Sequence record: PQ850623.1
Reading direction: 5' to 3' (one strand)
Source: Escherichia phage RudolfBernhard_Bas96
DNA length: 64,000 nucleotides
Made by a program: the position numbers and the translations under genes. Of this stretch, positions 1-9,355 are shown piece by piece. Numbering within the stretch: position 1 is the stretch's first letter; each line of letters opens with the position of its first letter. The notes under the pieces are model-generated. The model was not told where the DNA came from. It did no database searches and worked only from the letters and a program-made list of their open reading frames with translations.

Positions 1-690
1 ATGAGTGAGCTAACTAAGCAGCAGATCATTAATGCCTTACCTGCTAACTTCAAGAACAGTGTAAGCCAGGAGTTGGTAGACACGATTAACAACATAACCC
101 AAGACCAACTGGTTGCTGAAGCATTCCGTGAAAACTTCATCTCTTACTCTGGTGTTATGAAGGAAGGTAAGTTTAAGACACAGGACTACATGAATGCAGT
201 TCAGTATGTGACTTACAAACATATGGGCTATTCAAATAAAGAAGCCTACTTCAAAACATTCCCTAACCGACAAGCAGAACTTATAGCACGGGGAACCAGT
301 GAGAAAGATATAAGTGCTTATGTATCTGCTTATCACAGGGGTAAGTTAGTTAATCTCATCATGGAACAAAGTTTGGTTCCAGTGTGGATTGTGAACCAAG
401 ACAATTATCAGAAGGCAATCAATGTTCAGGTTGAACTGATGACTACAGCAGCAAGTGAGAAAGTAAGATGTGATGCAGCTAACTCTATCCTTACTCATTT
501 AGCTAAACCAAAAGACCAGGTAACGAATATCAATCTGGATTTGAGGGAGAACTCTGGGTTGACTGACCTCAAGGCAACGCTTGCTGCATTAGCTGAACAG
601 CAAATTAATGCAATCAATAGTGGTGTACCTACTAAAGAGATTGCTGGTTCTAAACTAGTACGTGCAGATGAGGACATTACAGATGTCTGA
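1..690 (+). CDS. Hypothetical protein immediately upstream of large terminase; possible small terminase subunit; may be 5'-truncated by the window edge
   Basis: 229-aa ORF from the track; position directly 5' of terL and 8-nt overlap with it; no diagnostic motif seen. Confidence 0.4.
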   Translation: MSELTKQQIINALPANFKNSVSQELVDTINNITQDQLVAEAFRENFISYSGVMKEGKFKTQDYMNAVQYVTYKHMGYSNKEAYFKTFPNRQAELIARGTSEKDISAYVSAYHRGKLVNLIMEQSLVPVWIVNQDNYQKAINVQVELMTTAASEKVRCDAANSILTHLAKPKDQVTNINLDLRENSGLTDLKATLAALAEQQINAINSGVPTKEIAGSKLVRADEDITDV

Positions 691-2272
691 GTTAATTAAA
701 CAGGAACTAGATGAATGGCTAGACCAGGTGGATTACTCCCACCTTAATTCATCCAATTATGTTCCTAGTCAGTTTGCTCTTACCTTTGCCAACTTTATTA
801 AGTTGGTTAATGGCAAAGAAGGAGAATCCAACAAAACACCCCCTGTTCACCTGAAGATGTTGGATAAGATGATTACCCCGAACCAGTATGTAGTTAACCT
901 GTGTTTCCGTGGTGCAGGTAAGACTGCTGTGTTCATGGAATACTTTACTTTGTTCCTAGCAGTGTTTGGACACTTACCAAGCCTGGGTAAAGTAGAGGGA
1001 ATGATTTACGTATCTGACTCAATGGATAACGGTGCTAAGTCTGCACGTAAGAACATTGAGTTCCGTTACAAGAATAGTGAGTTCCTTCAACAGTGGATAC
1101 CTGAAGCTACCTTTACGGATAACCTATTAGAGTTTCGTAATGCAGAAGGGCATCGACTGGGTGTTAAGTTATTTGGTGCTAAGACAGGTCTTCGTGGTAC
1201 GAAGATATATGGTAAACGTCCAACACTCTGTGTACTGGATGACCTGATTAGCGATGGTGATGCTAACTCTAAGACGAGCATGGAAGCTATTAAGGATACT
1301 GTCTATAAAGGTGTGAACCATGCTCTTGACCCGACACGTCGTAAAGTAATCTTCAATGGTACTCCCTTTAATAAGGAAGACATTATCATTGAAGCAGTTG
1401 AGTCCGGTGCATGGGATGTCAACGTATGGCCTGTGTGTGAGAAGTTTCCTTGTAGTAGAGAAGAGTTTCAGGGTGCATGGGATGACCGTTTCTCATATGA
1501 CTACATCAAAGCCCAATACGACATGGCAGTTAAGACCGGTAAGCTGGCTGGTTTCTACCAGGAACTTATGCTTCGTATTAGTTCAGAAGATGAACGTCTT
1601 GTTCAGGATAGTGAGATTAAGTGGTACAGCAGGCAACAACTGTTAAGGATGAAGTCCTGCTACAACTATTACATTACGACCGACTTCGCTACTTCGGAGA
1701 AACAAACAAGTGACTACAGTGTCATATCAGTTTGGGCTTATAGTTCTAATGGAGATTGGTTCTGGGTTGATGGTGTGGCTAATCGCCAGCTTATGGATAA
1801 AAACTTCGACGACTTGTTCCGTCTGGTTCAGGAATACCAGCCACAAAACGTTGGTGTCGAAATTACAGGACAACAAAATGGATTTATCTCACTCCTTCAG
1901 AAAGAAATGATTAACCGTAATGTCTTCTTTAACTTTGCATCCTCTGAGGGTGGTAAGCCAGGCATCCGTCCTGTAACCTCTAAGCTGTCACGTTTTAACC
2001 TGGTAGTTCCTTGGTTCAAGGCTGGTAAGATGTACTTCCCGGAAGAGTTGAGAGATACAACTATTATGGGTCTGTTCATGGGCCAGATTAAACTAGCTAC
2101 CATTAATGGGATCAAAGGTAAGGATGACTGTATTGATACTATCTCCATGTTGGGATATCTCAATCCTTGGAAACCACAAGCAGGTATGACTTTGGTGGAT
2201 AACAAGGGTGACCCGATGTGGGATGAGGAAGAAGAAGATAGTGTTAACCCACTACGTTCATACATTGTGTGA
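683..2272 (+). CDS. terL: Terminase large subunit (ATPase + nuclease)
   Basis: Walker A-like CFRGAGKT, Walker B-like LCVLDDLISDGD, C-terminal nuclease region (ITTDFATSEK...); start moved from track GTG at 662 to ATG at 683, which has a GAGGA RBS 8 nt upstream. Confidence 0.8.
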   Translation: MSELIKQELDEWLDQVDYSHLNSSNYVPSQFALTFANFIKLVNGKEGESNKTPPVHLKMLDKMITPNQYVVNLCFRGAGKTAVFMEYFTLFLAVFGHLPSLGKVEGMIYVSDSMDNGAKSARKNIEFRYKNSEFLQQWIPEATFTDNLLEFRNAEGHRLGVKLFGAKTGLRGTKIYGKRPTLCVLDDLISDGDANSKTSMEAIKDTVYKGVNHALDPTRRKVIFNGTPFNKEDIIIEAVESGAWDVNVWPVCEKFPCSREEFQGAWDDRFSYDYIKAQYDMAVKTGKLAGFYQELMLRISSEDERLVQDSEIKWYSRQQLLRMKSCYNYYITTDFATSEKQTSDYSVISVWAYSSNGDWFWVDGVANRQLMDKNFDDLFRLVQEYQPQNVGVEITGQQNGFISLLQKEMINRNVFFNFASSEGGKPGIRPVTSKLSRFNLVVPWFKAGKMYFPEELRDTTIMGLFMGQIKLATINGIKGKDDCIDTISMLGYLNPWKPQAGMTLVDNKGDPMWDEEEEDSVNPLRSYIV

Positions 2273-2278
2273 GGAACC

Positions 2279-2989
2279 ATGCAGAAATTATCGGAAGTAT
2301 ACCGTGGCTTGGCACTAAGTACCTTGAAGGGTACTGGTTCAGTTACGGATGACAGACTGGGTATTGAGCCAGATAGTAAGCCGGAGATATTAGCAGCTAT
2401 TAATGAAGGGCTGGTACGACTGCATAGTCGTTTTCCTCTTAAGACAAATAGCTGCATTGTGGAGATGAAGGAAGGGCGTACTGATTATCCTCTTCAATCC
2501 AAGTATGCTTACTCCAAATTTACTAAGCCTACTCTTGAGGTTCAGTATCCTTATATCATGGATGGGTTCATGAAGCCTTTCCAGGATGATGTTATTAAAA
2601 TCTTAAATGTGTTTGATAACTCTGGGAATAGACGTAGACTGAACGACGATTCAGATCCCCGAGCTATTTTCACCCCACGGCCTGATACTATTCAGTGTAT
2701 GCGACCTCGACACTTCGAGGCACTTAACGTAACGTATCAAGCTAAGCACCCAGTACTTACGGGTGATGAAGAACAGGAAGTTGATTTAGCTGATACGCTA
2801 ATGACGGCACTTCATAACTGGGTGGGTTATCGTTACCACACTGGTTTGAATACTCCTGAAGCTAACGCTAAAGCAGCAGAGTATCTGCAAACGTATGAAA
2901 GCATCTGTGGTGAGGTTGTTGATTACGACCTGGCTAATGGAAGTATTTCAATTACCGAAACTAAATTTGAACAACGAGGATGGCGATGA
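2279..2989 (+). CDS. Hypothetical virion/tail-associated protein (N4 gp67-like by position)
   Basis: 236-aa ORF with GAGGAA RBS; synteny between terminase and tailspike genes. Confidence 0.4.
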   Translation: MQKLSEVYRGLALSTLKGTGSVTDDRLGIEPDSKPEILAAINEGLVRLHSRFPLKTNSCIVEMKEGRTDYPLQSKYAYSKFTKPTLEVQYPYIMDGFMKPFQDDVIKILNVFDNSGNRRRLNDDSDPRAIFTPRPDTIQCMRPRHFEALNVTYQAKHPVLTGDEEQEVDLADTLMTALHNWVGYRYHTGLNTPEANAKAAEYLQTYESICGEVVDYDLANGSISITETKFEQRGWR

Positions 2990-5922
2990 ACGCACATACC
3001 CCCTTCGATGCAAAACAGGATTGGACCAATCCTTACTGCCAGAACAGTTCCAATGACCCAATGGTAGATGCACTACTAGGTAATGCTTATCATGTGGTTC
3101 GTACTGTCTACTGTAACTTGGGTAACCTGAAGCTTATCTACGACTTCCTGAACCAGTATGGGATGGTTCTTGGTGTACAGTCTGAAGCAGAACTTAAGGC
3201 GTTAACTACTGAAGCTAAGTATGCACGCATCTATGGTTTCTCCCGTGTAGGTGACCGTCAGGTTACAGACTACCTGTACGTGGAAGGTGATCGTACAGGC
3301 ATTCTACCCAACGACACCACTGCAACAGGCTCATGGATTACTGTTGCTACTTCTGGTGCAGGTGATGGCAGTGGTGGTATTTCCTCTGGGGGAGGTGCAT
3401 ACATTCCTTGGGTATACAGCAACGGTTCTGCTACTGGTGGGGAAACTTCCATTAACGTACCGGATGGGACAGTAGGTGTACCATTCATTATTGTTAATGG
3501 TGATATGCAGTATGTAGGACGAGGCTTTGAGTTTAACGTAGACGATCTGTCCGTAACTCTGGCTCAACCTCTGGAAGAAGGTGATGAAGTAGTATTCCTA
3601 CTGACTGGGGTTCCTGCTGTACCGGACAACCCTAATGTTAATGACTGGATTCAGATTAATTGGTTATATAACAATGGTGTTGCTGTAGGTGGTGAGCAGG
3701 TTATTGCTATTCCATACACTTTCCAGTCTATTCCAGCCGTGTATAAGAATGGGCTTCGTTTGTATAAAGGATTAACCACTGAATCATATACTGCTGACCC
3801 GGATAACCAGCGTATCCTTCTTACTGAGACACTGGCAACCAATGACCGATTGATTGTACAGCTTGGTGGTGAAGCACGGGTATTGGAAGCAGCAGACCAT
3901 ACTCTTCAGGAAGTTGCTCGTGCAGCTAACGTTAAGGATAGTGAGGTAATTCTTAGTACAGATAGTACCCAGTTCCTGAATGACAAGAGGGTTGTTTATT
4001 CTGTTAGTGAACAGAAGGCATATGGTTTGCCTGTATTACCAACAAATGTATACATTCAGTCCGTTAGTGACGGTAAGTTAACATACTCCCCCGGTAACAT
4101 TACGGTTGATTTACTTCCGTTACCAGAATCTGCTACTAGTTTAAAAAATAAATTTGCAGAAGAAAATGGTGCAGGGCTAGTTGGTACAACATCCGGCAGG
4201 ACCGTACAGGAAGAGTTTGACTACCGCAAAACTCAAGCGGAAAAAACAGAGATAAACATACTTGACTACCTTCCGGATAACGTGATCGCGGCGCTAAACG
4301 ATGTTAATGCATCAATGGCTCTAGGAAGCGTAAGGACATACATCGAACAGGCTTTGGCGGTAGCAACGAGCGAGAATATCGGTACTGGGGTTACTTTACG
4401 TTTCCCGGCTGGGTTCTTTTGGCTTGATTCTACTCTTAACCTTCCTAAAAGGACGCGTATTGTTGGAGTCTACCCAGAAACATACTTTATGGCACTCCCC
4501 AACTTTACCGGCACTAACGTAATTGCTGGCTCCACGGGACCAGCTATAGTCGCTATTGATAACTCAGGGCAAGACCCATTTTATATCGAAGGTTTTCAGA
4601 TAAACGCAGATGGTTCCCAGCCGAATGTGGTTGGGCTGCACATTGGCGGCTGCCGTAATTCCGTCGTCCGTCGGATATCTGTATCGGGGACCTTCGATGC
4701 TGCTGTTGTTATCCACCCTAAAAACGCAACATCTGGGGACGTGGAGAACCTGGAATTAAGCCACGTATGGACATTAGGTGGTGGGCTTGTGCTCAGGACT
4801 AATACAGATATCGACCGTGGAAATTTAACAGGTCTGTCATTCCGGGATTGTATGTTTTTCAGCACAATCGACAACAACCCTTCATGGGCGACGTCCGGTA
4901 ACCCATCCATCAGATTCTCATGTCATACTGACAGACAGATTTTTTCATGTACATTCGACCGCGTTGGTTGGGCTAGTCGTGCGACATACGCTATTTACTC
5001 AGAAAGTCTTGCAGGAAATAGCGAGGCAGATGTAAAAGGTTTCCGTGATATCCATTTCTCTGATTTCGCCGGAGAATCTCACAACGCTGACGGCTCGCTA
5101 ACATCAGACTGTACGTATGCCCTACTTACGAAGATGCGGAATAGCACATTTACTAACATCCAACGCTCTGGCGCCGTGACCCGTGGGGGTATCATTATGG
5201 ATGGGTGCGAATATGTGACCTTCAACTCAGTGTCTTTTGCAGATCCCAATATTAGCACTGGAACAACTGCCCCACGGTGCGTATATCAAAACTCTACTAA
5301 TAGATTTAACCGTTTTATCAATTGTGACTTAACAGATGCTACTGGTAGTATGTTTGATTTAGATGGTTGGACCATAGCTAACAGTGTGATGTACTACTTT
5401 AAGGGCCTGTTCTGGGATGACAGTGGGACTAGTATCTGGGAATGTGAACAAATGTCTAGCACTCCTGGCGTTATGTTCGCAAGAAGTACATTAAACCAAA
5501 ATAACGGGTCGGCCTTCCCTCAACAGTCTGGGGTTACAATGCTAACTTCAGGCGACGACCTTCAAGTTACTTTTGCAAGAGACACCACTACTAAAACCTT
5601 TACAATACCTATTACTACATCTTCTGGTGTATTTAATAACCATGACAGGGTGTATGTGGCATTTAGACATCAGTTCCTTAGCTATGGAACCAATACTGTA
5701 GTGAAAATAGGGATTGGAGGTAAGTATGTTACAATCAGTCCTCAATCGGGAACTGATTATTTTGCGGTGGTTAGTAGAGCACGTTCTTTGGCAACATCAT
5801 TTGATATCCAAGTCACTTATAGTGGCGCTTCGGAAGATTGCATTATTCTTATTAGAGATTTAATTGTATCAAATAAAATGCCGTGGCTCCCTAACTTCAC
5901 CAAAGTCTTACTTTGCGATTAA
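2986..5922 (+). CDS. Tailspike/tail fibre protein with N-terminal particle-binding region and C-terminal beta-helix-like region
   Basis: 978 aa; ATGA start/stop overlap with upstream gene at 2986-2989; Gly/Ser/Thr/Asn-rich C-terminal half with repeated N-x-G / S-x-G turns typical of right-handed beta-helix tailspikes. Confidence 0.5.
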   Translation: MNAHTPFDAKQDWTNPYCQNSSNDPMVDALLGNAYHVVRTVYCNLGNLKLIYDFLNQYGMVLGVQSEAELKALTTEAKYARIYGFSRVGDRQVTDYLYVEGDRTGILPNDTTATGSWITVATSGAGDGSGGISSGGGAYIPWVYSNGSATGGETSINVPDGTVGVPFIIVNGDMQYVGRGFEFNVDDLSVTLAQPLEEGDEVVFLLTGVPAVPDNPNVNDWIQINWLYNNGVAVGGEQVIAIPYTFQSIPAVYKNGLRLYKGLTTESYTADPDNQRILLTETLATNDRLIVQLGGEARVLEAADHTLQEVARAANVKDSEVILSTDSTQFLNDKRVVYSVSEQKAYGLPVLPTNVYIQSVSDGKLTYSPGNITVDLLPLPESATSLKNKFAEENGAGLVGTTSGRTVQEEFDYRKTQAEKTEINILDYLPDNVIAALNDVNASMALGSVRTYIEQALAVATSENIGTGVTLRFPAGFFWLDSTLNLPKRTRIVGVYPETYFMALPNFTGTNVIAGSTGPAIVAIDNSGQDPFYIEGFQINADGSQPNVVGLHIGGCRNSVVRRISVSGTFDAAVVIHPKNATSGDVENLELSHVWTLGGGLVLRTNTDIDRGNLTGLSFRDCMFFSTIDNNPSWATSGNPSIRFSCHTDRQIFSCTFDRVGWASRATYAIYSESLAGNSEADVKGFRDIHFSDFAGESHNADGSLTSDCTYALLTKMRNSTFTNIQRSGAVTRGGIIMDGCEYVTFNSVSFADPNISTGTTAPRCVYQNSTNRFNRFINCDLTDATGSMFDLDGWTIANSVMYYFKGLFWDDSGTSIWECEQMSSTPGVMFARSTLNQNNGSAFPQQSGVTMLTSGDDLQVTFARDTTTKTFTIPITTSSGVFNNHDRVYVAFRHQFLSYGTNTVVKIGIGGKYVTISPQSGTDYFAVVSRARSLATSFDIQVTYSGASEDCIILIRDLIVSNKMPWLPNFTKVLLCD

Positions 5923-6000
5923 AACTAAGGCCCAATTATTTAATAAAATGCCCCTCCAATCATGGAGGGGTGGTATTCCTAGAAAAACAAAGAGGTTTAT

Positions 6001-7929
6001 ATGAACGAAATGTTCTCACAAGGTGGTAAAGGTTCAACTGGAATCTTAACCAACAAACAAACAATAGCCCGTCACTTTGGAGTTAAACAATCAGAGGTTG
6101 TTTACTTCTCAGTGGGTGCTCTACTTACTGGTTACAAAGTCATTTATGACAAAGCGTCACAGAGGGCTTACTCATTACCTGCTGATATTGGTTCTGGGGT
6201 TACTGCTGTAAGCCTTAGTCCTGCCGGAGTATTGGTACACTCTGCTGGTAATGTGGACTTAGGTGCACTAGCTGTTGCTCGTGAAGAATATGTAACCTTA
6301 CCTGGCTCATTTGATACCGGTGTAACAGTTAATACTAAGAACGAACTGGTTGTTTTTACTGATGGTAAGTACCGTTGGGATGGTGCATTACCTAAAGAAG
6401 TACCTGCTGGTTCCACCCCCGCATCCACCGGTGGTGTGGTTACTGGCGCCTGGCGCCCTGTGGGGGACTTATCTCTACGGCCAAGCTTGGCAACGGCCAA
6501 TAGTGGGTATCTTGTTGATGACTCAAACATTATGGTGCAGACACCGGCCAGTGGTGTCGTGCGGACGCAGCACCTAAGAAATGCAGACTATATCAGCGTA
6601 AAAGACTTCGGCGCTATTGGTGATGGCGTTACTGATGATTCGGCCTCTTTCAGCGCTGCGATTTCGTCGCTATTAGCTCGGGGGGGTTCAATATACGTGC
6701 CTGCCGGTGTCTATAATGTCAAGAACGCTAATATAGTGGTTAACACGACTGACTTTCACGGGAATAGAATTGGATTTTATGGTGATGGACCGGCGATATC
6801 CGTACTACGTACGGCAACTGCGTCTTCAAGTGATGTGGTTATGTCGGTAACAGCAAACACAGAATCAGCAATTAACTCAGTTATTGCTGGAGTTTCATTC
6901 CATGATATTGGGTTCGAAATACTTAACAACACTGGGACTGTTTTCCGCCTTGTCAACACTGCTTACGCCAAATTTGACAACTGTTATTTCAGAGGTGGGA
7001 GACTTGGATTTGAAAGCGCTGGATCGCTGAGTAGTTCATTCATAAACTGCAAGTTTACAGAGGCGGTTAACTACGGATTTTACGCTCACAACGGCTTCAG
7101 CTATCCAAATCAACTATCATTTTTCCAGTGCGTATTCGCTAGCAACCAAGTGGCTGGAATTTATGCAATTGACCCAGGCGGCCTACGTATTTACGGAGGA
7201 AGCATAGAAGGAAATGGGTTATCAAACACGGACATGACATTTGGTGGTGGCATCGCCATCGATACAAAACCAGGCGCCGCCGGCGTAACAATCCCGTTAG
7301 TGGTATCAGGAACATACTTTGAGTTCAATAAAGGGCTGGCCGACATATATATAGCTCACACGAATAACTTTGCAAACATTTCTTTCTCAGTTGATAGTTG
7401 CAGTTTTGGGCAAGGTGGGGAATTCACTACAGTAGACCGCGTAAAGGTTATTCATAGTACAACGTCTTCGCTTAGGGGTACGGTTTCAAACTGCAACTTC
7501 CATGAGTTATCCGGCTTTGTGCCAACTGCCAGCAACAAGTATATTAACGTCAGTGGTAGTGGCGCTGGTTATCGATCAGTTGTAAACGTTAACAACTATT
7601 ACAACTCAGTAGCCTCTTCCCCAGCAGACCAAACAGTTCGTAACTCTGTTACCTCTGGATTCTCAGAGCCTCGCATAGAGAAGTATACCGCCGTTACTGG
7701 CTCCGGAATAGCAACCGCGACTATAAATTTCAATGCCTTTTCTGCGCCCCCGGCTGTTTCAGTTATTGTATCTGACGGGACACCCGACAGCGTTTTTTCA
7801 ACTAGATTGGTGGCTTTGAGCGCAACAAGCTGTACCATAGAGGTCCTCAAAACAACAACCGCTGGTGGCGCTTGGACTCCAGCTACTTCAGTTGCACTTC
7901 ACGTAACTGCGGTTGGCGCATCAAAATAA
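6001..7929 (+). CDS. Tailspike with pectate-lyase-superfamily (depolymerase-type) beta-helix domain
   Basis: Motif YISVKDFGAIGDGVTDDSASFSAAISSLLARGGSIYVPAGVYNV (~nt 6589-6720) resembles the N-terminal signature of pectate-lyase-fold tailspikes; AGAGG RBS before ATG 6001. Confidence 0.6.
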   Translation: MNEMFSQGGKGSTGILTNKQTIARHFGVKQSEVVYFSVGALLTGYKVIYDKASQRAYSLPADIGSGVTAVSLSPAGVLVHSAGNVDLGALAVAREEYVTLPGSFDTGVTVNTKNELVVFTDGKYRWDGALPKEVPAGSTPASTGGVVTGAWRPVGDLSLRPSLATANSGYLVDDSNIMVQTPASGVVRTQHLRNADYISVKDFGAIGDGVTDDSASFSAAISSLLARGGSIYVPAGVYNVKNANIVVNTTDFHGNRIGFYGDGPAISVLRTATASSSDVVMSVTANTESAINSVIAGVSFHDIGFEILNNTGTVFRLVNTAYAKFDNCYFRGGRLGFESAGSLSSSFINCKFTEAVNYGFYAHNGFSYPNQLSFFQCVFASNQVAGIYAIDPGGLRIYGGSIEGNGLSNTDMTFGGGIAIDTKPGAAGVTIPLVVSGTYFEFNKGLADIYIAHTNNFANISFSVDSCSFGQGGEFTTVDRVKVIHSTTSSLRGTVSNCNFHELSGFVPTASNKYINVSGSGAGYRSVVNVNNYYNSVASSPADQTVRNSVTSGFSEPRIEKYTAVTGSGIATATINFNAFSAPPAVSVIVSDGTPDSVFSTRLVALSATSCTIEVLKTTTAGGAWTPATSVALHVTAVGASK

Positions 7930-7930
7930 C

Positions 7931-7945
7931 AAAAAAAAAAAAAAA
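7931..7945. repeat. A15 homopolymer tract immediately after the tailspike stop codon
   Basis: 15 consecutive A residues read directly at 7931-7945. Confidence 0.9.
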
Positions 7946-8001
7946 CATCAGCTTTTTGAAGCTGGAGTGATGTAGTACACATTGCTGGCACTATTGATAA
8001 G

Positions 8002-8028
8002 CACCCCTCTTCGGAGGGGTTATTTTTA
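8002..8028 (+). terminator. Rho-independent terminator (hairpin CCCCTC-TTCG-GAGGGG followed by T-run)
   Basis: Perfect 6-bp GC stem at 8004-8019 followed by TTATTTTTAT. Confidence 0.6.
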
Positions 8029-8054
8029 TCATTAGAAAAAGTATTTAATCTTTG

Positions 8055-8083
8055 AAGCCCATTAGGAGAGGGGCTTTTTTGTT
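8055..8083 (+). terminator. Second tandem rho-independent terminator
   Basis: GC-rich hairpin (AGCCC...GGGGCT) followed by TTTTTT at 8075-8080. Confidence 0.5.
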
Positions 8084-8152
8084 GTACCCCAAACTCACCT
8101 TTATGTAGACTGTTTCAGTCAATCACGACTTAACTAACCTGAGAAAGTCCCT

Positions 8153-8485
8153 ATGGGAAATGAACCAGATAACGTAACTCTAGCCAGACTCGAAGAGAGA
8201 CTGAGAAACATTTTCGAAAACCAAACTCGTGAAGCGAGGGAAAGGGAGAAAATGGAAGAGTCTATTAAAAAGCTAAGTGAGTCTATGGGCGACCTTAGTA
8301 CCCGACTTAAACGGGTAGAGGAAAGCATCACTAAGTCTGAACCTACCATCGAAGAGTTCATCACCATTAAACATAAAGTTGCTGGTGCTGGAATTTTTGG
8401 TAAGTGGGTATGGGCTGGAGCAGGTGCAATTATTGGTGTATTGGCTGCTGCAAGACGGGAGATATTCGCATGGTTCGCAAGCTAA
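8153..8485 (+). CDS. Holin-like small membrane protein
   Basis: 110 aa; charged/coiled N-terminal half, hydrophobic C-terminal segment GIFGKWVWAGAGAIIGVLAAA; sits immediately upstream of the endolysin. Confidence 0.4.
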   Translation: MGNEPDNVTLARLEERLRNIFENQTREAREREKMEESIKKLSESMGDLSTRLKRVEESITKSEPTIEEFITIKHKVAGAGIFGKWVWAGAGAIIGVLAAARREIFAWFAS

Positions 8486-8730
8486 AAAGAAAGATAGGGC
8501 TAGTTCCTAACTGGAAGAAGTCCTGGAAGTGGGCATCTGTTCAGATTAGTGCATTTGGATTAATTCTATTTTCTGCTGTAGATATTATCCAACCAATGCT
8601 AACAGGACTACCACGTCACATCCTTGAAGATATTCCACATGGTTCCAGTATTACAATCGCACTGTTTGCTTTAAACATTGTAGGCAGACTAATACGATTC
8701 CATCCAAAGGAAGATTCTCATGAAAGCTAA
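8470..8730 (+). CDS. Small two-TM membrane protein (holin/antiholin candidate)
   Basis: Basic N-terminus then hydrophobic segments ISAFGLILFSAV and SSITIALFALNIVG; start placed at ATG 8470 with GGGAGA RBS; 16-nt overlap with the upstream gene. Confidence 0.35.
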   Translation: MVRKLKRKIGLVPNWKKSWKWASVQISAFGLILFSAVDIIQPMLTGLPRHILEDIPHGSSITIALFALNIVGRLIRFHPKEDSHES

Positions 8731-9355
8731 ACAGAAACTTGCTGCAAAAGGTGGTGCAGTGGGAGGAGTTGTCGCTGCTATTCTGGGGGCAGTGTTCTAT
8801 ATGGAAGGAGGGTACGTAAACAATCCTCACGACCCAGGTGGGGAAACTAATCATGGTATTACTCAATCAGTAGCCAAGTCTCATAAAGAAGTTCTGGCTA
8901 CTGAGTATGGTTGGGATGGTTCCATGAAGGGTTTATCAAAAGAGATGGCTGCTGAGATATACATTGATGACTACGTACTTAAGCCTAACTTCGTAGCCTT
9001 CGCTGATATATCTCCTGCTGTAACACACAAACTGGTTGATGCTGGTGTTAACACTGGTGTAACCAGACCGGCTAAATGGTTGCAGCAATCCCTTAATGAA
9101 ATGTCCCGTAATGGCAAAGACTACCCTAAAGTACAAGTTGATGGTAAAGTCGGTGCAGGTACTGTTAATGCATATAAAGCGTTACAGAAAAAACGAGGCA
9201 AAGTTGCAGCATGTCAGGTAATGATTAAGTTGCTTGATGCTAAACAACTGAACCACTACACCTCATTGAACATGCCAGACTTTACGTATGGTTGGGTAGC
9301 TAACCGAATCGGCAATGTGCCACTGGAGGCATGTAATGAAGATGCTAATCTCTAA
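8720..9355 (+). CDS. Endolysin, GH108-type N-acetylmuramidase (N4 gp61-like) with hydrophobic N-terminal SAR-like segment
   Basis: Motif EGGYVNNPHDPGGETNHGIT (~nt 8802-8862) matches the GH108 signature; N-terminal GGAVGGVVAAILGAVFY is Gly/Ala-rich and hydrophobic; AGGAAG RBS. Confidence 0.75.
   Translation: MKAKQKLAAKGGAVGGVVAAILGAVFYMEGGYVNNPHDPGGETNHGITQSVAKSHKEVLATEYGWDGSMKGLSKEMAAEIYIDDYVLKPNFVAFADISPAVTHKLVDAGVNTGVTRPAKWLQQSLNEMSRNGKDYPKVQVDGKVGAGTVNAYKALQKKRGKVAACQVMIKLLDAKQLNHYTSLNMPDFTYGWVANRIGNVPLEACNEDANL

What the first reader, a model, noticed from the sequence alone, without database searches (positions are those of the whole stretch)
2986..7929. Two consecutive tailspike-like genes suggesting a branched or dual receptor-binding apparatus
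The 978-aa protein has a distinct N-terminal half followed by a beta-helix-like C-terminal half; the 642-aa protein carries a clear pectate-lyase-superfamily signature (KDFGAIGDGVTDDSA...GGSIYVPAGVYNV, ~nt 6589-6720). This resembles N4-like phages that attach a second enzymatic tailspike to the first, and points to polysaccharide (O-antigen or capsule) depolymerase-based host recognition.
Basis: partly seen in the sequence, partly recalled or inferred. Interest (0 to 1): 0.45.

Follow-up and report, generated by a model that had tools for sequence, protein, structure and literature searches.

The report
Known two-tailspike module of G7C-like phage
The two genes are the standard pair of receptor-binding tailspikes of a G7C-like (N4-related) coliphage, one almost certainly specific for the E. 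coli O16 O-antigen and one of unknown target, an arrangement already described in the literature and therefore ordinary.

Summary

- **Source.** The window is a Gamaleyavirus (G7C-like, N4-related) genome, about 95% identical to phage F22 outside this locus. It is probably BASEL phage RudolfBernhard_Bas96.
- **ORF-B (6001-7929, 642 aa).** Residues 1-151 are the conserved gp63.1 / CBA120 TSP1 docking head. The rest lies in a swapped cassette (6454-8002) encoding a pectate-lyase-like beta-helix plus a beta-sandwich. Its nearest relative is 67% identical, and it has no DNA match in 50,697 phage records or 5,426 E. coli genomes.
- **Cassette exchange.** Metagenome contigs carry the same ORF-A paired with an SGNH-esterase ORF-B, so the two slots swap independently. 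GC-rich hairpins lie at or just past the right end of each cassette.
- **Mechanism, by homology to G7C.** ORF-A binds the tail, ORF-B docks on ORF-A's XD3 domain, and each spike processes its own glycan.

Interest is low. The only open point is what ORF-B recognises.

The parts
2279..2989 (+). gp67-like 236-aa virion protein (N4 30-kDa protein / SU10-adaptor-like), immediately upstream and translationally coupled (ATGA overlap). This is context for spike attachment, not a spike itself.
   Evidence: PHROG 2125, virion structural protein, E 5e-92. Pfam PF24175 SU10_adaptor at 25.9 bits, just under the cut-off of 27. G7C gp67 is annotated as confirmed in the virion.
2986..5922 (+). ORF-A, 978 aa: the gp66-type proximal tailspike, a chimera of a Gamaleyavirus scaffold and an imported receptor-binding domain.
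2986..3345 (+). ORF-A aa 1-120: tail-anchor domain. It is followed by a Gly/Ser-rich linker (aa 121-137, nt 3346-3396).
   Evidence: Nearly invariant among six Gamaleyavirus homologues. Residues 1-74 match the N-terminus of the N4 '60 kDa protein' in PDB 9lc0 (E 9e-5) and the PHROG 29955 'appendage' family. The anchor role is inferred from G7C gp66 (PMC8825819).
3397..3885 (+). ORF-A aa ~138-300: two T4 gp10-like beta-jellyroll domains. XD2 is about aa 138-215. XD3 is about aa 220-300 and is the inferred docking site for ORF-B.
   Evidence: CBA120 TSP2 6w4q, E 9e-32, aa 139-401. TSP4-N 7rfo, E 1.6e-12, aa 128-210. XD3 is highly conserved, whereas XD2 occurs in two allelic types. The requirement of XD3 for gp63.1 binding comes from PMC8825819. 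Boundaries are approximate.
3886..4125 (+). ORF-A aa ~301-380: D1-like head domain. This is the last stretch of Gamaleyavirus backbone homology.
   Evidence: 35% identical to ORF-B aa 20-90. DNA homology to G7C, F22, PhAPEC5 and L002 ends at 4097-4125; homology to ST4 already ends at 3957.
4126..4167 (+). Left junction of the ORF-A cassette: a 42-nt linker matching neither the Gamaleyavirus relatives nor Bas81. The same junction is present in metagenome protein P0089.
4168..5933 (+). Imported receptor-binding cassette of ORF-A (aa 395-978 plus 11 nt past the stop): helical neck, right-handed beta-helix and C-terminal beta-sandwich. Inferred O16 O-antigen specificity.
5951..5970 (+). GC-rich hairpin CCCCTCCAATCATGGAGGGG between the two spike genes. 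It is conserved in position across Gamaleyavirus. It is terminator-like, but the T-tract is weak on the + strand.
   Evidence: A stem-loop between g66 and g63.1 is described in bioRxiv 10.1101/542787.
5980..6000 (+). Conserved leader TAGAAAAACAAAGAGGTTTAT with the ORF-B ribosome-binding site (AAGAGG at 5990-5995).
   Evidence: Conserved (0-3 mismatches over the 21 nt) in the five Gamaleyavirus-type sequences aligned.
6001..7929 (+). ORF-B, 642 aa: the gp63.1-type distal tailspike.
6001..6453 (+). ORF-B aa 1-151: conserved N-terminal head (D1 plus the D2/PF18668 Tail_spike_N domain). Inferred to dock on ORF-A XD3.
   Evidence: 4oj5 CBA120 TSP1 E 3.7e-79, 4qnl G7C gp63.1 E 2.5e-70, 9d84 Gp48 E 4e-65. 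PF18668 E 3.4e-25. Within the 93.8%-identical block window 1-6453 shared with L008.
6454..8002 (+). ORF-B receptor-binding cassette, 1549 nt. It encodes a pectate-lyase-like beta-helix (aa ~197-555) and a C-terminal six-stranded beta-sandwich (aa ~556-642), followed by a 3' tail with an A15 run. The target glycan is unknown.
   Evidence: Homology to L008/L009 breaks at 6453/6454 and resumes at 8003. No blastn match in the phage or E. coli collections. Nearest proteins 67-68% identical. Only 14 clusters at E<=1e-30 among 1.84 billion representatives. AF2 pLDDT 82.5. Foldseek top hit is the Sf6 tailspike, E 8e-11.
8003..8027 (+). Intrinsic terminator ACCCCTCTTCGGAGGGGT followed by TTATTTTTAT. 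It forms the right boundary of the ORF-B cassette.

Best explanation
This is the host-recognition module of a G7C-like (Gamaleyavirus, Schitoviridae) podovirus: a two-branched tailspike complex.

ORF-A is presumed to be a homotrimer. It anchors to the tail through residues 1-120 and carries two gp10-like domains. The second of these, XD3, serves as the socket for the N-terminal head (aa 1-151) of the ORF-B trimer. Each tail appendage therefore displays two different enzymatic beta-helix spikes.

ORF-A's distal half is a cassette recently exchanged with small siphoviruses. It binds and cleaves the E. coli O16 O-antigen, which is the essential receptor on the known host. ORF-B's distal half is a rare pectate-lyase-like beta-helix that probably processes a different, still unidentified surface polysaccharide and so gives an alternative host specificity.

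The two cassettes are exchanged independently by recombination between the conserved 5' scaffolds and the conserved sequence around the GC-rich hairpins that follow each gene.

Shown here: gene order, domain homologies, cassette junctions and predicted beta-helix folds. Inferred: trimerisation, ORF-A/ORF-B docking, enzymatic activity, O16 specificity and the role of ORF-B.
For: Genus and synteny:
- 95.5% nt identity to F22 over 23 kb.
- Same gene order as G7C, gp68-gp67-gp66-gp63.1.

Scaffold homology:
- ORF-A aa 1-407 matches PDB 9d80_D at E 1.2e-152, Gp49 of 9d83/9d84 at E 2.6e-136 and CBA120 TSP2 at E 9e-32.
- ORF-B aa 1-170 matches G7C gp63.1 (4qnl) at E 2.5e-70, CBA120 TSP1 at E 3.7e-79 and Gp48 of 9d84 at E 4e-65.
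- Entry 9d84 contains both partner types.
- XD3 is highly conserved across six homologues.
- The literature reports a stable gp66-gp63.1 branched complex that needs XD3 (PMC8825819).

Folds:
- ORF-B: PF12708, AF2 pLDDT 82.5, Foldseek hits to Sf6 and other tailspikes.

O16 specificity:
- 98.75% nt and 98.1% aa identity to the single tailspike of Bas81, a phage that fully depends on O16 (PMC11990801).
- The same paper says Gamaleyavirus Bas96 depends on O16 and has one tailspike RBD closely related to others in the collection and one unrelated.

Independent swapping:
- L008 and L009 carry a 97%-identical ORF-A with an SGNH-esterase ORF-B. The breakpoints are at 6453/6454 and 8002/8003.
- The hairpin motif occurs 3 times in 64 kb against 0.03 expected, and two of the three copies flank ORF-B.
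Against: - No direct evidence here for trimerisation, docking, virion incorporation or catalysis.
- The ORF-A C-terminal half has no Pfam hit at all. Its model is only moderately confident (pLDDT 72.7, built from 8 sequences).
- ORF-A lacks the PF18668 D2 domain that G7C gp66 has at aa 400-454, so its geometry may differ from G7C.
- The 86-88% identical Kagunavirus tailspikes include those of Bas74-76, which are blocked by GtrABS glucosylation of O16, whereas Bas81 is not listed among the blocked phages (PMC11990801). Fine specificity within the clade therefore varies.
- Candidate catalytic acids of ORF-B (E403, E441, D448, E502) are conserved but unassigned.
Confidence: 0.85

Rival explanations
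1. The two spikes attach to the tail independently, side by side, as in SP6 or K1-5 where an adaptor holds two spikes. ORF-B would not branch from ORF-A.
For: A gp67-like, SU10-adaptor-like protein is encoded immediately upstream. The BASEL paper compares Gamaleyavirus with SP6 for alternative use of two spikes (PMC11990801).
Against: ORF-A retains the XD3 domain that G7C gp63.1 needs for binding (PMC8825819). ORF-B's N-terminus is the TSP1/gp63.1 type, which docks on gp10-like domains of a partner spike in CBA120 and G7C. PDB 9d84 holds both homologous chains in one entry.
Confidence: 0.06
2. ORF-B acts on the same host in sequence with ORF-A rather than opening a second host range. It might remove another glycan layer such as ECA, colanic acid or a capsule, or cut a different bond of O16, on the way to the outer membrane.
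For: In G7C only one spike's target is known, and the role of the second is unresolved (PMC10743462, PMC8825819). The ORF-B cassette has no close relative of known specificity. A sister lineage pairs the same ORF-A with an esterase. In G7C such an esterase deacetylates the O-antigen (PMC10743462), which shows that a gp63.1-slot enzyme can modify the O-antigen itself.
Against: Slot B is swapped independently of slot A among otherwise 94%-identical genomes. That fits alternative specificities better than an obligatory two-step pathway. BASEL reports a narrow, O16-restricted host range for Bas96 (PMC11990801).
Confidence: 0.2
3. ORF-B is a passenger on the known host: a structurally intact spike whose receptor is absent from O16 K-12, or an inactive binder, contributing nothing to infection there.
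For: If the window is Bas96, infection depends completely on O16, which is matched by ORF-A's RBD alone (PMC11990801). In G7C the converse holds: gp63.1 is essential and gp66's target is unknown.
Against: The ORF is intact. Its family conserves acidic residues and the whole beta-helix plus beta-sandwich. The model is confident. This reading is compatible with the main explanation, in which ORF-B provides an alternative host range.
Confidence: 0.3

Closest known systems
Phage G7C gp66 / gp63.1 branched tailspike complex (Gamaleyavirus; Prokhorov et al. 2017, as cited in PMC8825819, PMC10743462 and bioRxiv 10.1101/542787)
   Same: Same genus backbone (about 94% nt) and the same gene order with the ATGA overlap. 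The same gp66 N-terminal anchor, XD2 and XD3, and the same gp63.1 N-terminal head. A conserved stem-loop lies between the genes, and the C-terminal modules are swapped.
   Different: Both receptor-binding domains differ. G7C gp63.1 is an SGNH O-antigen deacetylase specific for an O22-like antigen, whereas ORF-B is a pectate-lyase-like beta-helix. G7C gp66 carries a PF18668 D2 domain and an RBD of unknown target. ORF-A lacks D2 and carries an O16-type RBD, so here the proximal spike, not the distal one, matches the known receptor.
BASEL phage RudolfBernhard_Bas96 (Gamaleyavirus rudolfbernhard; PMC11990801)
   Same: Described as a G7C relative that depends on O16 and has two tailspikes, one with a pectin-lyase-like RBD closely related to other BASEL phages and one unrelated. 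That is exactly the pattern seen here. Its presumed accession, PQ850623, is missing from a run of five checked (PQ850622-626 and others are present). Its taxid, 3398430, sits between those of the neighbouring records.
   Different: Identity with the window could not be tested because the record is not available. The paper does not dissect junctions or docking domains, or say which slot holds the O16 RBD.
CBA120 TSP1-TSP4 branched complex (Ackermannviridae; Plattner et al. 2019, PMC8825819)
   Same: ORF-A aa 139-401 is homologous to TSP2 XD2/XD3/D1 (E 9e-32). ORF-B aa 1-223 matches the TSP1 N-terminus (E 3.7e-79). The docking logic is the same: a spike head bound to the gp10-like domains of a partner.
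   Different: CBA120 is a myovirus with four spikes and a different baseplate anchor, and its RBDs are unrelated.
O16-specific tailspikes of small siphoviruses (Skatevirus-like Bas81; Kagunavirus Bas74-76, NTEC3, 590B)
   Same: The RBD is 98% (Bas81) or 86-88% (Kagunavirus) identical across all of aa 382-978. Nucleotide identity to Bas81 is 98.75%.
   Different: [quoted passage not shown] Here it is fused after the D1 domain of a 380-aa gp66 scaffold.
Sf6 / P22-type endoglycosidase tailspikes and PF12708 pectate-lyase-like proteins
   Same: ORF-B has the N-terminal cap motif DFGAxGDGxTDD (PF12708). Its best Foldseek hit is the Sf6 tailspike.
   Different: Only 15-16% identity. Catalytic residues could not be mapped, so hydrolase, lyase or binder remains undecided.

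Membership tests
G7C-type gp66/gp63.1 branched tailspike module (Gamaleyavirus) | Locus between the large terminase/gp67 and the gp63-holin-endolysin block, with two consecutive co-oriented spike genes | tested here: met
   Window ORF map against the G7C annotation. Flanks are 85-96% identical to Gamaleyavirus genomes.
G7C-type gp66/gp63.1 branched tailspike module (Gamaleyavirus) | First spike carries the gp66 N-terminal anchor followed by gp10-like XD2 and XD3 domains | tested here: met
   9d80_D E 1.2e-152 (aa 1-407), 6w4q E 9e-32, 7rfo E 1.6e-12. PHROG 12242 E 1.6e-278. Alignment with five homologues.
G7C-type gp66/gp63.1 branched tailspike module (Gamaleyavirus) | Second spike carries the gp63.1/TSP1-type N-terminal head, including Tail_spike_N | tested here: met
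   4qnl E 2.5e-70, 4oj5 E 3.7e-79. PF18668 E 3.4e-25.
G7C-type gp66/gp63.1 branched tailspike module (Gamaleyavirus) | Physical binding of the second spike to XD3 of the first, with both present in virions | not testable with these tools
   Inferred only, from conservation of XD3, the published G7C deletion mapping (PMC8825819) and the presence of both homologous chains in PDB 9d84.
Right-handed parallel beta-helix tailspike depolymerases (pectate-lyase-like superfamily) | Sequence signature of the superfamily | tested here: met
   For ORF-B: PF12708 at 43.2 bits against a cut-off of 27. For the ORF-A C-terminus this feature is NOT met, with 0 Pfam families even at E<=1.
Right-handed parallel beta-helix tailspike depolymerases (pectate-lyase-like superfamily) | Beta-helix fold of the central domain | tested here: met
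Right-handed parallel beta-helix tailspike depolymerases (pectate-lyase-like superfamily) | Homotrimer with a catalytic acidic pair, and polysaccharide cleavage | not testable with these tools
   Monomer models only. Conserved acids are listed (ORF-B E403, E441, D448, E502; many invariant D/E in ORF-A) but not mapped to an active site.
O16-specific tailspike RBD clade (BASEL Fig 11A group) | Full-length RBD homology to tailspikes of phages whose only RBP is that spike and which require O16 | tested here: met
   98.1% aa and 98.75% nt identity to Bas81, 87-88% aa to Bas74-76. Phenotypes from PMC11990801.
O16-specific tailspike RBD clade (BASEL Fig 11A group) | O16-dependent adsorption or cleavage by this protein | not testable with these tools
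   Would need LPS-ladder or plating assays. Reported at the whole-phage level for Bas96 (PMC11990801), which is probably, but not provably, this genome.

The most novel reading that the evidence does not exclude
ORF-B's receptor-binding cassette (6454-8002) may define a new glycan specificity. Its nearest relative is 67% identical, it falls among only 14 related 50%-identity clusters at E<=1e-30 in 1.84 billion representatives, and it has no DNA match in 50,697 phage records or 5,426 E. coli genomes. It could target a non-O16 polysaccharide and give this otherwise O16-restricted phage a hidden second host range. In this phage the spike matching the known receptor is the proximal gp66-type one, the reverse of G7C. 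That would show that either branch of the complex can trigger infection.
Probability: 0.4. Interest if true: 0.3.

Novelty: already known. Interest (0 to 1): 0.15.

Why it matters
For annotation, the locus can be labelled with confidence as a proximal gp66-type tailspike with an O16-type RBD and a distal gp63.1-type tailspike with a pectate-lyase-like RBD.

For phage engineering, the mapped breakpoints (about 4126-4167 to 5933, and 6454 to 8002) and the sister contigs carrying a different slot-B enzyme give ready-made swap points for retargeting G7C-like phages.

It does not open a new biological question. The only unknown is the glycan recognised by ORF-B.

Tried and rejected
- **PDB paper search.** I searched papers for the PDB ids 9D80/9D84 to find the structure paper. 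Only irrelevant hits came back.
- **Bas81 by name.** Searching for 'TanjaMuster' found nothing. The BASEL paper was reached through the 'Bas74' term instead.
- **Kagunavirus host serotypes.** Papers on NTEC3, 590B and SCS92 gave no O-serotype information for the Kagunavirus homologues from their titles and abstracts; I did not open them.
- **ORF-B cassette origin.** blastn ('distant' mode) of 6454-8002 found no match in either the phage or the E. coli collection, so neither a prophage origin nor a serotype could be proposed.
- **Pfam on the ORF-A C-terminus.** It gave nothing even at E<=1, so the fold call rests on predicted structure.
- **Exact protein look-up.** Neither window protein is in the 15-billion-protein collection. 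That look-up did, however, surface the 97%-identical P0089.
- **Sigma-70 promoters.** I rejected promoter calls in the locus: 12 were found against 12.3 expected.
- **Overlapping ORFs.** I treated the small ORFs overlapping the spike genes on either strand (for example 4596-4910 and 6168-6530) as probably spurious. I did not test them.
- **Fetching Bas96.** PQ850623 is not in the collection, so identity with the window remains circumstantial.
Full report
**1. What is there**

The + strand carries two long consecutive ORFs.

ORF-A is listed mechanically as 2980-5922. The ATG at 2986 is the likely start and gives 978 aa:
- it overlaps the TGA of the upstream 236-aa gene as ATGA and follows a GAGGA motif;
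- G7C has the same 4-nt overlap between gp67 and gp66;
- solved homologues align from this Met.

ORF-B is 6001-7929 (642 aa). The quoted motif KDFGAIGDGVTDDSA...GGSIYVPAGVYNV sits at aa 197-240, which is nt 6589-6720. It lies inside a Pfam PF12708 match (E 5.3e-11, 43.2 bits against a cut-off of 27).

**2. Whose genome**

Megablast of the flanks and of 23 kb downstream identifies a Gamaleyavirus (G7C-like, Schitoviridae):
- identity is 95.5% to vB_Eco_F22, 95.2% to E20 and 93.8% to G7C;
- the window also holds the 3605-aa virion RNA polymerase ORF typical of N4-like phages;
- gene order is the same as in G7C: terminase gp68, virion protein gp67, tail fibre gp66, tail fibre gp63.1, then gp63, holin and endolysin.

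No phage record covers more than 48% of 2000-9000, because the distal halves of both spike genes differ.

**3. ORF-A is a chimera**

The N-terminal scaffold:
- Residues 1-407 match the 1086-aa 'tail fiber protein' of PDB 9d80 (E 1.2e-152).
- Residues 14-381 match Gp49 of 9d83/9d84 (E 2.6e-136).
- Residues 139-401 match CBA120 TSP2, residues 128-210 match CBA120 TSP4-N, and residues 1-74 match the N-terminus of the N4 60-kDa appendage protein (PHROGs).
- An alignment with five Gamaleyavirus homologues shows a nearly invariant anchor (aa 1-120) and a Gly-rich linker. It also shows an XD2 domain with two allelic types, a highly conserved XD3 and a D1-like head. All similarity is lost after about aa 376-380.

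The junctions at DNA level:
- Backbone homology ends at 4097-4125 in G7C, F22, PhAPEC5 and L002, and at 3957 in ST4.
- From 4168 to 5933, which is 11 nt past the stop, the window is 98.75% identical to the tail fibre gene of siphovirus TanjaMuster_Bas81.
- Backbone homology resumes at 5937-5980.

The imported module:
- The protein is 98.1% identical to Bas81 over aa 385-978. It is 86-88% identical to the Kagunavirus tailspikes (NTEC3, 590B, Bas74-76).
- The family is small: seven clusters in 5.8 billion proteins.
- This half has no Pfam hit.
- An AF2 model (pLDDT 72.7) gives Foldseek hits to K2-2 TSP, Depo32 and CBA120 TSP4 (E 2e-10 to 8e-8).
- Unlike G7C gp66, ORF-A lacks the PF18668 D2 domain. 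In Bas81 that domain lies just upstream of the shared module.

**4. ORF-B**

The N-terminal head:
- Residues 1-170 are the gp63.1/TSP1-type head: CBA120 TSP1 E 3.7e-79, G7C gp63.1 E 2.5e-70, Gp48 of 9d84 E 4e-65.
- The PF18668 match has E 3.4e-25.

The receptor-binding part is rare:
- tblastn finds at best 44% identity in phages.
- The closest proteins anywhere are 67-68% identical. P0001 lies in another Gamaleyavirus-like contig with the same gene order. P0002 and P0003 are 478-aa proteins, and P0003 lies in a T7-like contig.
- An exhaustive HMMER scan of 1.84 billion representatives gives only 14 clusters at E<=1e-30. It gives 8821 at E<=0.001, which is the broad superfamily.
- blastn of 6454-8002 finds nothing in 50,697 phage records or 5,426 E. 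coli genomes.

The fold:
- The AF2 model (pLDDT 82.5) is a beta-helix followed by a six-stranded beta-sandwich.
- Its best Foldseek matches are the Sf6 endorhamnosidase and other tailspikes.
- Acidic residues conserved in the family are E403, E441, D448 and E502. I could not assign a catalytic pair.

**5. Independent cassette exchange**

A cluster look-up surfaced P0089, a 976-aa metagenome protein 97% identical to ORF-A along its whole length, including the junction.
- Its contigs, L008 and L009, are 93-94% identical to window 1-6453. They diverge completely from 6454 to 8002 and resume at 8003.
- Their slot-B protein has the same head fused to an SGNH/GDSL esterase, the G7C gp63.1 type of enzyme.

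So slot B is swapped while slot A is kept.

The right end of cassette A lies 17 nt upstream of a GC-rich hairpin (5951-5970). The right end of cassette B abuts a second hairpin (8003-8020, a canonical terminator). The motif CCCCTC-N-GAGGGG occurs three times in 64 kb against 0.03 expected. The third copy follows the vRNAP gene.

This matches the stem-loop that bioRxiv 10.1101/542787 reported as a recombination landmark between g66 and g63.1.

**6. Mechanism**

Published work on G7C shows a stable two-branched gp66-gp63.1 complex in which gp63.1 binding needs gp66 XD3 (PMC8825819). Both scaffolds are conserved here, and both partner types sit together in PDB 9d84. The most likely mechanism is therefore:
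- the ORF-A trimer sits on the tail;
- the ORF-B trimer docks on ORF-A's XD3;
- each spike processes its own glycan.

For ORF-A the glycan is very likely O16. Bas70-82 have a single tailspike and depend completely on O16 (PMC11990801). ORF-B's glycan is unknown.

Docking, trimerisation and catalysis are inferred, not shown.

**7. Probable source**

PMC11990801 describes Gamaleyavirus RudolfBernhard (Bas96) as a G7C relative that depends on O16. It has two tailspikes, one closely related to others in the collection and one unrelated. That is exactly this pattern.
- BASEL accessions run alphabetically by phage name. PQ850622 (OliverMaurmann, taxid 3398429) and PQ850624 (RuthEpting, taxid 3398431) are in the collection.
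- PQ850623 is absent.
- Taxid 3398430 is RudolfBernhard_Bas96.

This is circumstantial, but it makes it likely that the window is that published genome.

**8. Verdict**

The system is the documented norm for the genus and was probably already described for this very phage.

The residual interest is modest: an uncharacterised slot-B specificity, and the point that here the proximal spike, not the distal one as in G7C, matches the known receptor.

Noticed in passing
window 7931-7945: An uninterrupted run of 15 A starts two bases after the ORF-B stop codon (TAA C A15 C). It lies inside the non-homologous cassette tail, upstream of the terminator. It could be a recombination scar or a slippage-prone tract.
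   Followed up: no
window 8003-8027 and 8055-8082: Two hairpin-plus-T-tract elements in tandem downstream of ORF-B: ACCCCTCTTCGGAGGGGT + TTATTTTTAT, then GAAGCCC..GGGGCTTTTTTTG. Only the first was picked up by the terminator scan; the second was read by eye. Backbone homology to different relatives resumes at 8003/8004 (L008, L009, G7C) or at 8070-8076 (F22, PhAPEC5, ST4).
   Followed up: partly
window 32549-32564: Third copy of the CCCCTC-loop-GAGGGG hairpin family, 11 nt after the stop of the 3605-aa virion RNA polymerase ORF. There are 3 copies in 64 kb against 0.03 expected.
   Followed up: partly
window 3397-3630 (ORF-A aa ~138-215): The XD2 domain exists in two clearly different allelic types among Gamaleyaviruses. 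The window, PhAPEC5 and L002 share one type; G7C, F22 and ST4 share the other. The flanking anchor and XD3 are much better conserved. The partner of XD2 is unknown even in G7C (PMC8825819).
   Followed up: partly
L008 6122-8218 and L009 3737-5833: Metagenome Gamaleyavirus contigs with a 97%-identical ORF-A carry a 698-aa slot-B spike with a GDSL/SGNH esterase domain instead of the beta-helix. An esterase paired with an O16-type depolymerase hints at O-acetyl removal, but this was not examined.
   Followed up: partly
L003 8001-9437: A 478-aa homologue of the ORF-B RBD (68% identical) lies in a T7-like contig downstream of the holin and lysozyme genes, with almost no N-terminal anchor. This resembles the short docking-peptide second RBPs of KP32-type phages.
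   Followed up: no
phage collection, accession PQ850623: Of five consecutive BASEL accessions checked (PQ850622-626), this is the only one missing from the collection. The taxid between those of its neighbours is RudolfBernhard_Bas96, so the window is probably that held-out genome.
   Followed up: yes
P0006 (Asaia sp. VD9, 449 aa): A bacterial (Acetobacteraceae) protein on a 139-kb contig is 46% identical to the ORF-B RBD and has no phage-type N-terminus. It may be a prophage remnant or a cellular glycosidase relative.
   Followed up: no
window 8153-8485: The gp63-like 110-aa ORF is annotated 'tail length tape-measure protein T' in several related records. It gives only weak coiled-coil-type Pfam hits below the cut-offs, so that annotation looks unreliable.
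   Followed up: no
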